From contig CP154954.1 of NCBI GenBank assembly GCA_039621445.1, positions 12,518,716-12,582,715 on the forward strand: a stretch of 64,000 bases of DNA. Direction: 5' to 3'. A program made the translations under genes and the position numbers. The notes beneath the pieces are model-generated. The model was given only the letters and a program-made list of their open reading frames with translations. It was not told where the DNA came from and searched no databases. Origin of the DNA: Euglena gracilis. Taxonomy: Eukaryota. Positions 742 through 36,213 of this stretch are shown here, in pieces; within the stretch, counting starts at the first letter, position 1; each line of letters starts with the position of its first letter.

Positions 742-3700
742 GTGTGACGTGGGTGGTTGTGTGATGTGTGCCTCCCAATTTGAGGATCTGCTCCCTTGCC
801 CACAGAATAGGGGCAAGCATGCCAACCCACACATGCACGTGTGTATGTGCACGTAGGTGCAGTGGATGCAAGCTCTTGACTCTCAAGCTCATATGCAACA
901 CCGACACAACACACAACAAGCACAGCACAACACAATCTGCACAGATCAACGTCACATGGACTGATAAGTGAGATTGTGATCAAACCCTGCCCTGCAACAG
1001 CTGTAACCCACTGTTGAACCATGGCTACGAAGGCCGGGGACCCCTGCAGTAGCATTTTGCATCGTGCAAATACGTTGAATCATTCACACTGCTGTTTTCA
1101 AGGTCACTTATTCCACGGTGACTGCCAACCGTTATTGAACAATTCTCTGGCTCGTCCGCCGAGCATTGCTTTTAAGGTGATCTTGACTTTAGCTGATTTT
1201 GTCAGGGTGCTCTGCGATGGGCATTTTGGCGGACGTACTTGCACTGCGTGCTGAGGAGCTGGGCCTACACCCTGGCACGGTGGCTGCCTGGGGGCGTCCA
1301 GGCAGGTATCCTGTAGCCAACTGGATGGTTAATGGTGTAGGCGTGTTATTTGTTCTTCGTTTGGGGCTTCTCTCTGCTTCGACAGGCGGTTTTTACCATT
1401 TGCCCATTATTATATCTTTTCATTTTCTTCCTTTTTCTTTCAGATTGTCTGTTGAAAACTTCTTTCCTCCTCCCATCATGGTACCTCGTCCCCCCCCCCT
1501 GGGCTCTTGGCCCCTCGGCATTTGCCCCCCTCCTTTTCACATGCAAACCTGGCCCCCCAAAAGTTAGGTTTTGATCTTATATTACGATCGCGGCTTTTTG
1601 GCTCAATTTGCGTTTGGCCGGCTAAACATCTGACCATCCAATCTTGGCACCTGTTGTTGGCCCCCCCAACCTTATTTTCAATTGTGTGCCCTGGCCAAGC
1701 GCCCGGGCTCTGGCCTGGGGCGCAGTTGATACTTTCCCGCCGCCAACCCCAGCGCATCATGCAGGACGACGTGATGCACCTGGGGCTGCTCATCCTGGAG
1801 TTCCTCGCGCCGTACCCCCTGTTCTCGGAGGGGTTCGTCCAGACCGGGGGGCCCGAGGTCCTGGCCCAGTTCCTGCTCAACACGGAGCGGCCCAAGCGAC
1901 CAGGCACGACCGCTCAAATAATTGGATGCACATATTTTTATCTGGAATCCCTGGAACGTGCCTAAAAATGTACCTAAAGCCTGGAATGCACCTCAAAAGC
2001 TTTCATATGGTCTTACAGTCATATGGTCTGACAGTTTCCTGGGGGGGGGGTTGTTGCAAATACAGGGCAAAAAGTCTTATTGCACAGAGCACATGGAGGA
2101 AACACTCATAAGAATTTTCACTGGTTTTTTGGTGCTTTTGTTCATTTGTGTTCTTCGGATGTTTAATGATTCTTCATTCAAATTGCACCCCGCTGCTGAA
2201 TCTGATGCATATTCGTTACCATTATTCGGTACCATTATATTCGGTATATATTCGGTACCGTTTCAACGGACACTGGTGCCTCCAACGGCGTCCCCCTGCG
2301 GTGCCCTGCCCCTGCGTGCTCGTGGTGCTTTACGAGCTGTTCCAGGGCAACTCCGTCCGCCTGCCCGCCCAGGACAAGCACGTCGCCCTGCTGGACGCCG
2401 CCATCCACAGCGGTGCCCAGCCTGCCGTGACCTTCCTCTTTTTCCTGTGCCGTCGGTCCTGTCTGAAAAGCTGACGGGACGATAAACCCAGGATTTGGTC
2501 TTGTCGGGCTCTCTTTCTGGCTCTGTGCAATGAAAGATGGCTTTCGAATTTTGATGCTGTAAATGCAGAAAAACGTTTAAACCCTTCTCCCAGTTCAGCC
2601 ATCTGCTTGTGTGCTTTTGCAGTGGAGCTGCTCCCTCAAGGGACAGTTTTCTTTTTTTTCCCCAATCGGAAGGGTCCTTGTGCCCACCGTTCGGGTTTGT
2701 GTGCGCCTGCATTTGTGAAGGGTTTTCGCAGTGAACGTGTCACCAACACGTCTGCGCCGCACTGCGCGCATGTCTGCCCTCTGCTTTCCTCAACGCCGTC
2801 CCACAGGCGACGCCTCCGGCCCAGCCCCAGCCAATCCGCCAGGCTGTCCGCGACGCCTACTCCCGCCAGGCAGCCGCGGGGCTCCTCAACGGGTTCCTGG
2901 CGGACACGAACGATTTCTGCCCCGCCAAGCAGTCCGCGGCGCGGGCTCCCGGTCGTAAAGCGAGAGCCTGCTGGGGCGCGCTGGGGAGACAAGGGTTGGT
3001 CGGATTTTGGAATGAGTGGTATTTGGCGCTGGGTGCCTGATTATGGCTGACTTCAAGCGGAAACTGGATTGGTCGGCAGGCACCAGGACTCAAAACCAAC
3101 CCCCCCCCCCCGCCTGCCGTGGGCCGGCACCCCATAGCACCCCCCCCAAGGTTGACGGACAGAAGCCCAATCCCCACTCGCACACCGCCGGGGTCTGCCA
3201 GCAACGCCACCGCCCTCGTGGCGGGCAACGCCGTGGACCTGTTCCTCTCGGCGTTGGCCCTGGCGCGGGCGCAGGCGTCGCGGACGCTGCCCCCGGAGGC
3301 GGACCAGCTGGCGCAGCTCGTGACCAGCCCGGCGAAGGCGAAGCCCAGGGACTGGGCTGGATGGGAGGGGACGACCACACCCCTGTGATGCAGTGGCAGC
3401 GACCGGTTCTGCCGGGTTATTGCTGTGGTGCCTGCATGTTGTACTTTCTTGGTCATGGATGCACCTCTGAACGAAGTTCTTTCCTCCCCCGTCCCGGAGT
3501 GTCGTTGGGAAGTTGTCGCCTTTTTGTCTCATTTACCAAGAAGCACGATGATGATACCCTCGTTTACCAAGTACATGCCTCCCCCTCCAAGCCTGCTTCT
3601 GGGACAGGCATTCCAGCGTTTCCCAAGGCCAGCCAGTTCGCCAGGACATGATACAGAGCGTATGCCACCACAATAGTGGTCTCTCGCCGTCACCGATTCC

Positions 3701-36213: not shown

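What the first reader, a model, noticed from the sequence alone, without database searches (positions are those of the whole stretch)
1898..36174. At least 15 non-GT-AG stem introns interleaved with GT-AG introns in one gene
Seen: introns 1898-2313, 2415-2851, 2927-3202, 3343-3778, 4910-5666, 6655-7389, 8396-8635, 10304-11449, 12544-13621, 26418-26720, 28772-29287, 29386-29764, 31345-33776, 33872-33915 and 35311-36174 each have CAG at +4..6, CTG at -8..-6 and intron-specific complementary ends, and each restores the frame. GT-AG introns (742-1205, 3913-4602, 7565-8263) alternate with them. Known: this is the euglenid nonconventional intron class, whose splicing machinery is not well characterised. 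It identifies the lineage and explains why the ORF track is uninformative.
Basis: partly seen in the sequence, partly recalled or inferred. Interest (0 to 1): 0.7.

Follow-up and report, generated by a model that had tools for sequence, protein, structure and literature searches.

The report
Euglena gene split by 37 nonconventional introns
This is a Euglena gene cut into 38 small exons by 37 introns of the already described hairpin-ended "nonconventional" kind and by no ordinary GT-AG intron, so it is a correct rediscovery of known biology with an imperfect gene model.

Summary
The motifs are real. All 15 listed introns have CAG at +4..6 and CTG at -8..-6.

A transcript-derived Euglena gracilis protein, P0001 (EukProt EG_transcript_694, 1253 aa), lies colinearly on the + strand from 588 to 36213. 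It is 1133 of 1156 residues identical once two small extra stretches in the window are skipped. This allows a junction-by-junction test, at protein level only.

12 of the 15 stem introns are exact. One (31345-33776) has the right 5' end and a wrong 3' end (true end 33839). Two are not used (4910-5666, 33872-33915).
- **GT-AG introns:** none of the three is used. An independent 45%-identical ortholog, P0002, agrees where it aligns.
- **True structure:** 38 exons and 37 introns. None of the 37 can be drawn as GT/GC-AG.
- **Fit to the published code:** 21 of 37 fit N3-CDG...CH'G-N5-6|R (PMC12501133), against 0.4% of random placements. Nine of the other 16 keep the same 3/5-6 helix geometry with other base pairs.

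The class, its code, its majority share of Euglena introns and its circular excision are in print, so this is already known. No RNA reads could be laid. Earlier notes of this scan describe the same intron class elsewhere in this genome.

The parts
588..36213 (+). Window part of one protein-coding gene. It has 38 exons (26-204 nt, median 94) encoding residues 99-1253 of P0001. The stop codon is at 36211-36213. Residues 1-98 are not in the window.
   Evidence: tblastn and junction scans of P0001 against the window. Spliced translation is 1133 of 1156 identical. No match to residues 61-98 in 1-587.
735..995 (+). Intron 1 (splits 725..735 fit equally well). CAG/CTG clamp with spacers 3/6 and a 6-bp in-register helix.
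1032..1219 (+). Intron 2 (1029..1035). CGG/CTG clamp with a middle G-U, 5-bp helix. Outside my strict code test; the paper reports CGG-CTG introns as spliceable.
   Evidence: PMC12501133 Results
1296..1744 (+). Intron 3 (1293..1296). CAG at +4 only; no in-register helix.
1898..2313 (+). Intron 4. CAG/CTG.
2415..2851 (+). Intron 5. CAG/CTG, 7-bp helix.
2927..3202 (+). Intron 6. CAG/CTG, 3-bp in-register helix.
3343..3778 (+). Intron 7. CAG/CTG, 5-bp helix.
3892..4632 (+). Intron 8 (3890..3892). CAT/ATG at the clamp position, 7-bp helix at spacing 3/5.
4677..4790 (+). Intron 9 (4670..4678). CAG/TTG clamp (G-U), 9-bp helix.
4872..6555 (+). Intron 10 (4871..4872). CGG/TCG clamp, 10-bp helix at 3/5.
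6655..7389 (+). Intron 11. CAG/CTG.
7520..8302 (+). Intron 12 (7515..7525). 9-bp helix at 3/5 starting TGG/CCA; one pair further out it reads CTGG/CCAG.
8396..8635 (+). Intron 13. CAG/CTG, 7-bp helix.
8746..9356 (+). Intron 14 (8746..8747). ATG/CAT at the clamp position, 5-bp helix. Starts GT but ends CC.
9425..10213 (+). Intron 15 (9424..9427). CAG at +4 only; its helix lies deeper in the intron (about 11 and 12 nt in).
10304..11449 (+). Intron 16. CAG/CTG. Holds a 21-nt tandem array at 10340-10671.
11512..12512 (+). Intron 17 (11508..11512). CAG/CTG, 11-bp helix. Unlisted.
12544..13621 (+). Intron 18. CAG/CTG.
13663..19047 (+). Intron 19 (13661..13665), 5,385 nt. CCC/GGG with spacers 3/6; the next exon starts with C. 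Full of CT-rich and tandem repeats.
19142..21035 (+). Intron 20 (19141..19146). CAG at +4 only; no in-register helix. Holds an ORF with a zinc-knuckle hit.
21133..21599 (+). Intron 21 (21129..21134). CAG/CTG. Unlisted.
21649..21866 (+). Intron 22 (21646..21654). CAG at +4, TAG at -8; no in-register helix.
22005..22288 (+). Intron 23 (22003..22007). CAG/CTG. Unlisted.
22332..23343 (+). Intron 24 (22332..22333). 7-bp helix that reads CCG/CGG at spacing 3/5, or CGG/CCG at spacing 3/7.
   Evidence: the second reading is my own reading of the printed ends
23386..24224 (+). Intron 25 (23385..23387). Swapped clamp CTG/CAG, 7-bp helix. Fits the published code.
24319..25046 (+). Intron 26 (24317..24323). 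CAG/CTG. Unlisted.
25161..26340 (+). Intron 27 (25160..25166). CAG at +4 only; imperfect pairing.
26418..26720 (+). Intron 28. CAG/CTG, 11-bp helix.
26790..28671 (+). Intron 29 (26789..26791). TGG/CCA at 3/5 (CTGG/CCAG one pair further out). Holds a MITE-like element.
28772..29287 (+). Intron 30 (28764..28775). CAG/CTG.
29386..29764 (+). Intron 31. CAG/CTG, 10-bp helix.
29833..29837 (+). Not an intron. A 5-nt tandem copy (GCGGG) present in the window and absent from the reading frame of P0001; it shifts the frame.
29969..30514 (+). Intron 32 (29965..29969; called J33 in my scripts). CAG/CTG. Unlisted.
30707..31318 (+). Intron 33 (30704..30710). 3-bp in-register helix only. A 6-nt direct repeat at the joins.
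31345..33839 (+). Intron 34 (31342..31349). CAG/CTG. Holds (CATATA)n.
33881..34355 (+). Intron 35 (33879..33881). CGG/CCG, 8-bp helix. Fits the code.
34481..34481 (+). One extra base in the window relative to the frame of P0001; it shifts the frame.
34524..35208 (+). Intron 36 (34522..34524). No clamp and no in-register helix.
35311..36174 (+). Intron 37. CAG/CTG, 8-bp helix.

Best explanation
The window holds most of a nuclear gene of Euglena gracilis or a very close relative. It encodes a 1253-aa, ARM-repeat-like protein of unknown function. Within the window the coding sequence is broken into 38 short, GC-rich exons by 37 introns. All 37 belong to the euglenid nonconventional class and none is a GT-AG spliceosomal intron.

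Shown here:
- Where the exons join, at protein level.
- That no join can be drawn as GT/GC-AG.
- That 21 of 37 introns carry the published signature N3-CDG...CH'G-N5-6 followed by a purine.
- That the two ends of each intron pair with each other better than with the ends of other introns.

Inferred from the literature, not shown here: the two intron ends form a helix that starts 3 nt inside the 5' border and ends 5-6 nt inside the 3' border. The helix brings the two splice sites together. An unidentified machinery, probably not the spliceosome, then cuts and joins at fixed distances from the helix and releases the intron as a circle.

It then filled gaps in its model with three GT-AG introns and two motif decoys that the transcript does not use.
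For: - **Transcript-derived protein.** P0001, labelled eukprot:EG_transcript_694, was the only hit to one exon translation. It maps colinearly on the + strand from 588 to 36213. The spliced translation is 1133 of 1156 identical.
- **Junctions.** A scan of all split positions gives 37 introns. 0 of 37 can be GT/GC-AG at best identity. The five same-length GT/GC-AG alternatives I scored cost 1-4 residues each.
- **Published code.** It is met by 21 of 37 true introns, all 21 followed by a purine, against 70 of 18,500 random placements.
- **End pairing.** Own ends average -22.0 kcal/mol against -17.9 for 1,332 cross pairs. 0 of 5,000 permutations reach the observed mean.
- **Helix in register.** A helix of 5 bp or more at spacing 3/5-6 occurs in 25 of 37 introns, against 8.9% of random placements and 15.8% of cross pairs. 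Among the 16 introns that miss the code it occurs in 9, against 9.9%.
- **Literature read.** PMC12501133 (abstract, Results, Discussion) gives the code, 71.8% nonconventional introns in E. agilis, and unknown trans-factors. PMC11170887 (abstract, sections 4 and 10) gives 16,151 of 28,337 E. gracilis introns as nonconventional, with paired termini.
Against: - **No RNA reads.** The evidence for the joins is one transcript-derived protein and one ortholog. Borders are therefore known only to within the slide ranges that keep the protein unchanged.
- **Frame breaks.** The window differs from P0001 by 22 substitutions, one residue gap and two frame-breaking extras of 5 nt and 1 nt. This copy may not be the one that made the transcript.
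- **Introns outside the code.** 16 of 37 miss the published code. Six of those 16 have fewer than 3 in-register pairs, so for those six the mechanism is assumed by analogy only.
- **Weak separation.** Own-end pairing is only modestly better than cross pairing in this GC-rich DNA. The own 3' end ranks best of 37 for 4 of 37 introns.
- **Low specificity.** The code with a helix of 5 bp or more marks 28,285 pairs in the gene, of which 16 are true. Something else must contribute to site choice.
Confidence: 0.93

Rival explanations
1. The window copy is a decaying allele or paralog of the expressed gene. The introns are then real by descent, but this copy is frame-shifted and may make no full-length protein.
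For: There are two frame-breaking extras relative to P0001: a 5-nt tandem copy near 29833-29837, which leads to a stop two codons later in that frame, and one extra base at 34481. There are also 22 substitutions and 1 gap in 1156 aligned residues.
Against: - Both extras sit in G/C-rich short repeats, where I recall that assemblies often carry indel errors. That recollection comes from no call.
- All 37 intron borders and the stop codon are intact.
- Exons keep 98% identity and a GC content of 0.716 against 0.518 in the introns.
Confidence: 0.2
2. Some of the reader's unsupported introns are used in other isoforms or in stepwise, nested splicing. Candidates are the three GT-AG introns and 4910-5666, which lies inside the larger intron 4872-6555.
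For: - 4910-5666 fits the published signature with a 6-bp helix.
Against: - Neither P0001 nor the ortholog P0002 contains the residues these models would add or drop.
- Signature pairs of that quality are common by chance: 11,537 pairs with a helix of 6 bp or more in this gene, 12 of them true.
Confidence: 0.08
3. These are spliceosomal introns with degenerate borders, not a separate class.
For: None from this window. PMC11170887 section 10 says that the trend towards spliceosome independence still needs experimental verification in E. gracilis.
Against: - 0 of 37 have GT/GC-AG borders.
- 21 of 37 carry the genetically defined nonconventional signature, against a 0.4% chance rate.
- The intron ends pair in a fixed register.
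- PMC12501133 shows by knock-in that this signature is required and that synthetic introns built on it are spliced.
Confidence: 0.03

Closest known systems
Nonconventional introns of Euglena, with the splicing code 5'-N3CDG-/-CH'GN5-6|R(exon) (Nomura et al. 2025, PMC12501133; earlier Milanowski et al. 2014 and 2016, seen as search listings and citations)
   Same: - Non-GT-AG borders.
- A CAG/CTG clamp (also CTG/CAG and CGG/CCG) 3 nt from the 5' border and 5-6 nt from the 3' border.
- A helix continuing inward from the clamp.
- A purine at the start of the next exon.
- Slidable borders with short direct repeats.
- 21 of 37 introns here fit the code (57%), close to the 61.2% reported for E. agilis nonconventional introns.
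   Different: Nothing categorical.
- This gene has no conventional intron at all, while the paper stresses that many genes mix both kinds.
- 16 introns miss the code. Nine of those keep the 3/5-6 helix geometry but have other pairs at the clamp position: CAT/ATG, ATG/CAT, CGG/TCG, CAG/TTG, TGG/CCA, CCG/CGG, CCC/GGG and CGG/CTG.
E. gracilis intron census (Gao et al. 2024, PMC11170887)
   Same: - Consensus CCAGG at +3..+7 and CCTG at -9..-6.
- Terminal pairing of nonconventional introns.
- Tandem repeats inside introns.
- Intron lengths here (114-5385 nt, median 612) lie within their reported ranges.
   Different: Their census gives 43% GT/GC-AG introns. This gene has 0 of 37.
MITE-like transposons proposed as the source of nonconventional introns (Discussion of PMC12501133; PMC11282704 seen as a search listing only)
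   Same: Inverted-repeat ends, and short direct repeats at many joins (0-6 nt).
   Different: - No intron of this gene is a full-length copy of another sequence in the window.
- The one clear MITE-like element (26883-27291) lies inside an intron and is not the intron itself.
- I did not test the direct repeats against chance.
Conventional U2-type GT-AG introns of Euglena (consensus GTGTG at the 5' end and a C-rich tract; PMC11170887)
   Different: None of the three is used according to P0001 and P0002. No true intron of this gene has these borders.

Membership tests
Euglenid nonconventional introns | Borders are not GT/GC-AG | tested here: met
   0 of 37 introns can be drawn GT/GC-AG at best identity to P0001. 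The five same-length alternatives I scored lose 1-4 residues.
Euglenid nonconventional introns | CDG at +4..6 paired with CH'G followed by a 5-6 nt spacer (PMC12501133) | tested here: met
   Met by 21 of 37: 19 CAG/CTG, 1 CTG/CAG, 1 CGG/CCG. Chance rate is 70 of 18,500 placements. Not met by 16 of 37; the paper itself finds the pattern in 61.2% of such introns.
Euglenid nonconventional introns | Base pairing continues inward from the clamp and brings the two borders together | tested here: met
   An in-register helix of 5 bp or more occurs in 25 of 37, against 8.9% of random placements. Own ends average -22.0 against -17.9 kcal/mol for cross pairs, with 0 of 5,000 permutations reaching that mean. 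Six introns have fewer than 3 in-register pairs.
Euglenid nonconventional introns | Purine at the first base of the downstream exon | tested here: met
   21 of 21 code-fitting introns. Also 8 of the 9 non-code introns with an in-register helix.
Euglenid nonconventional introns | Removed from the mature mRNA at these borders | tested here: met
   Tested at protein level only. The transcript-derived protein P0001 joins the exons at these places, and the ortholog P0002 is colinear across them where it aligns. Nucleotide-level joins were not seen because no reads were laid.
Euglenid nonconventional introns | Excised by a non-spliceosomal route as a circular RNA | not testable with these tools
   Known for tubA introns only through reference 25 of PMC12501133, seen as a citation. 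There is no data for this gene.
Euglenid nonconventional introns | Host is a euglenid (the class is also reported in diplonemids) | tested here: met
   The matching protein is labelled EG_transcript_694. That label style is used for E. gracilis Z1 in PMC6366073. The mention of diplonemids comes from the abstract of PMC6221363.
   742-1205, 3913-4602 and 7565-8263 have GT...AG, but they are not the joins of P0001 and do not agree with P0002.

The most novel reading that the evidence does not exclude
Two readings go beyond what I found in print.

1. **Intron kind is sorted by gene.** This 37-intron gene has no conventional intron. If kinds were dealt independently at the published rates, that would happen with a probability of about 9e-10 (E. 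gracilis census) to 5e-6 (E. agilis census). This lineage-restricted gene may have gained all its introns through the nonconventional route, possibly from transposons.

2. **The natural rule is geometric rather than sequence-based.** Nine of the 16 introns that miss the published code still have a helix that starts exactly 3 nt from the 5' border and ends 5-6 nt from the 3' border. The pairs at the clamp position are ones that single-site mutagenesis would score as dead: A-U or U-A in place of C-G or G-C, G-U wobbles, and possibly CCG/CGG.

I looked for a statement on per-gene sorting in the main texts of PMC12501133 and PMC11170887 with word searches and found none. Their supplements were not read and may hold it.
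Probability: 0.3. Interest if true: 0.45.

Novelty: already known. Interest (0 to 1): 0.2.

Why it matters
As a finding it mostly confirms known biology. Euglena uses a second, hairpin-defined splicing rule for most of its introns, and a reader without tools can recognise it from sequence alone. It recovered 12 exact introns.

The useful by-products are:
- A transcript-checked model of a 37-intron gene.
- A clear example that the published code is far from sufficient to predict introns.
- A small set of natural introns that keep the code's geometry with different base pairs. These are ready-made test cases for the existing knock-in assay.
- A gene with no conventional intron, which raises the testable question of whether the two intron kinds are sorted by gene.

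Tried and rejected
- **RNA reads.** The look-up of sequencing runs listed no holder on record as RNA. No read-level evidence was obtained.
- **Own genome.** None is held, so intron kinds in other genes of this genome could not be counted.
- **Pfam on open frames.** I scanned 261 + strand stop-to-stop frames of 50 aa or more between 1 and about 38.9 kb (the three low-complexity frames at 14175-16038 were left out). The only hit above its cut-off was a zinc knuckle inside an intron. There were two sub-threshold chance-level hits. Exons are too short for this approach.
- **Protein identity.** Pfam on P0001 gave nothing. The Atlas gave ARM-like leads only, with a best score of 0.90 and recognition below the usual level.
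- **Nearby GT/GC-AG pairs.** A permissive search for any in-frame GT/GC-AG pair within 15 nt of each join found candidates at 33 of 37 joins. Every one either shifts a border outside the range that fits P0001 or changes the protein length. The five same-length candidates I scored cost 1-4 residues. Rejected.
- **Longest helix in any register**. In this GC-rich DNA the longest helix often lies elsewhere. It sits at spacing 3/5-6 in only 8 of 21 code introns and 4 of 16 non-code introns, against 1.5% by chance. I therefore rely on the in-register count.
- **A second gene downstream.** A look at GC-rich blocks in 36.3-64 kb recognised no gene. The planned Pfam scan of that region was not run.
- **Intron families.** No intron is a full-length copy of another sequence in the window.
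Full report
**Observation.** Every one of the 15 listed stem introns has CAG at +4..6 and CTG at -8..-6, and the three listed GT-AG introns begin GT and end AG. It does so again across 6655-7389, 7565-8263 and 8396-8635.

**Getting transcript-level evidence.** No RNA reads could be laid. No whole genome is held for this window.

A protein search with the translation of a single exon (4605-4907), looking among longer proteins, returned one hit. 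This is P0001, 1253 aa, labelled eukprot:EG_transcript_694. That label style is used for Euglena gracilis Z1 transcripts in PMC6366073 (passage seen).

tblastn of P0001 on the window gives a colinear chain of near-identical + strand pieces from 588 to about 36204. Residues 1-98 are not in the window. P0001 is therefore the spliced product of this gene or of a near-identical allele.

**Junction scan.** For each pair of neighbouring exon pieces I tried every split position and kept those giving the best identity to P0001. This gives 37 introns and 38 exons. Exons are 26-204 nt (median 94) and introns 114-5385 nt (median 612). The stop codon is at 36211-36213.

The spliced translation is 1133 of 1156 identical to P0001 residues 99-1253, with 22 mismatches and one gap column. 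To get this I skipped two extra stretches in the window:
- a 5-nt tandem copy near 29833-29837;
- one base at 34481.

Whether these are assembly errors or a frame-shifted allele is open.

- Twelve of the 15 stem introns are exact.
- 31345-33776 has the right 5' end, but the true 3' end is 33839.
- 4910-5666 lies inside the true intron 4872-6555.
- 33872-33915 is replaced by 33881-34355.
- None of the three GT-AG introns is used. 742-1205 would remove a real 36-nt exon (996-1031). 3913-4602 and 7565-8263 would add residues that P0001 lacks.

A second protein, P0002 (1410 aa, source ENA, 45% identical over 616 residues), is colinear with P0001 across exactly these places and includes the mini-exon. 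The P0001 structure therefore does not rest on one assembly.

**No conventional intron.** At best identity, 0 of 37 introns can be drawn GT/GC-AG. A permissive search for any in-frame GT/GC-AG pair within 15 nt finds candidates at 33 of 37 joins. All of them shift a border or change the protein length. The five same-length candidates I scored cost 1-4 residues. The closest is a GC-AG at 11514-12514 that costs one residue, at an intron that also has an 11-bp in-register nonconventional helix.

**Fit to the published code.** PMC12501133 (abstract, Results and Discussion read) defines the code by knock-in mutagenesis as 5'-N3CDG-/-CH'GN5-6|R(exon). Pairing after the clamp is also needed. The paper finds the pattern in 61.2% of E. 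agilis nonconventional introns.

Here 21 of 37 introns fit: 19 CAG/CTG, one CTG/CAG and one CGG/CCG. All 21 are followed by a purine. Random placements with the same lengths and slide ranges fit in 70 of 18,500 cases.

**Intron-specific pairing.**
- RNAduplex energies of each intron's own two ends average -22.0 kcal/mol, against -17.9 for 1,332 cross pairs (Mann-Whitney p = 1.9e-5). 0 of 5,000 permutations reach the observed mean.
- The separation is modest. The own partner ranks best of 37 for only 4 of 37 introns.
- Counting consecutive pairs in the published register (3 nt from the 5' border, 5-6 nt from the 3' border), 25 of 37 introns have 5 or more. The rate is 8.9% for random placements and 15.8% for cross pairs.

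**The 16 introns outside the code.**
- Nine have an in-register helix of 5-10 bp, against 9.9% expected (binomial 5.6e-6). Eight of those nine are followed by a purine.
- At the clamp position they read CGG/CTG, CAT/ATG, CAG/TTG, CGG/TCG, TGG/CCA (twice), ATG/CAT, CCC/GGG and CCG/CGG.
- Some of these readings depend on which equally good split is chosen. The two TGG/CCA cases read CTGG/CCAG one pair further out, which would put the clamp closer to the borders than the code allows. The CCG/CGG case can also be read as CGG/CCG with a 7-nt spacer. These two points are my reading of the printed ends.
- Six of the 16 have fewer than 3 in-register pairs. One more has 3.

**The code is not sufficient.** Between 588 and 36210 there are 28,285 signature pairs with a helix of 5 bp or more, of which 16 are true introns. 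With a helix of 9 bp or more there are 945, of which 3 are true.

**Comparison with what is known.**
- The class, the CAG/CTG ends, the pairing, the slidable borders and the purine preference are all in print.
- So is the fact that these introns are the majority: 71.8% in E. agilis, and 16,151 of 28,337 in E. gracilis (PMC12501133; PMC11170887 abstract and sections 4 and 10).
- Circular excision is cited there for tubA (Guminska et al. 2021), which I saw only as a reference.
- Earlier notes of this scan describe the same class elsewhere in this genome.

Novelty is therefore 'already known'.

**What is mildly unusual.** No conventional intron occurs among 37. At the published shares, independent draws would give this with probability 9.3e-10 or 4.8e-6 (arithmetic). 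Word searches of the two main texts found no statement on per-gene sorting. The supplements were not read. One gene is an anecdote, and I could not count other genes of this genome.

**The protein.** It has no Pfam family. The Atlas gives ARM-repeat-like leads only. The N-terminal 616 residues and the C-terminal end are conserved in P0002. Its function is unknown.

**Verdict.** This is known biology with a corrected gene model, and interest is low.

Noticed in passing
window 29833-29837 and 34481: Two frame-breaking extras relative to the transcript-derived protein: a 5-nt GCGGG tandem copy and a single extra G. Either assembly errors in G/C-rich repeats or a frame-shifted allele.
   Followed up: partly
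window 26883-27291 and 44406-44815: Two 95%-identical copies of a roughly 410-bp MITE-like element. Its terminal inverted repeats of about 24 nt consist of a C run followed by TATGTCCAAYGACC. One copy lies inside intron 26790-28671.
   Followed up: partly
window 19739-20056 (+), inside intron 19142-21035: An open frame with a zinc-knuckle match (PF00098, E 9.8e-5, above its cut-off). Possibly a leftover of a retroelement gag gene.
   Followed up: no
window 13663-19047 and 31840-32773: The 5.4-kb intron holds a CT-rich low-complexity block (about 14200-15620) and tandem duplications of 163-391 nt (15852-18407). Intron 31345-33839 holds about 156 copies of CATATA.
   Followed up: no
window 9947-10051, 21211-21311, 27935-28203, 53910-54200: A short dispersed repeat shared by three introns of the gene and by a downstream site, 76-92% identical.
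   Followed up: no
window 7515-7525/8297-8307 and 26789-26791/28670-28672: Two introns share a CTGG/CCAG end helix that sits one to two bases closer to the borders than the published 3/5 spacing.
   Followed up: partly
window 36300-64000: No gene was recognised from GC-rich blocks and open frames. The region has proline/CT-rich and (CA)n-like low-complexity stretches.
   Followed up: partly
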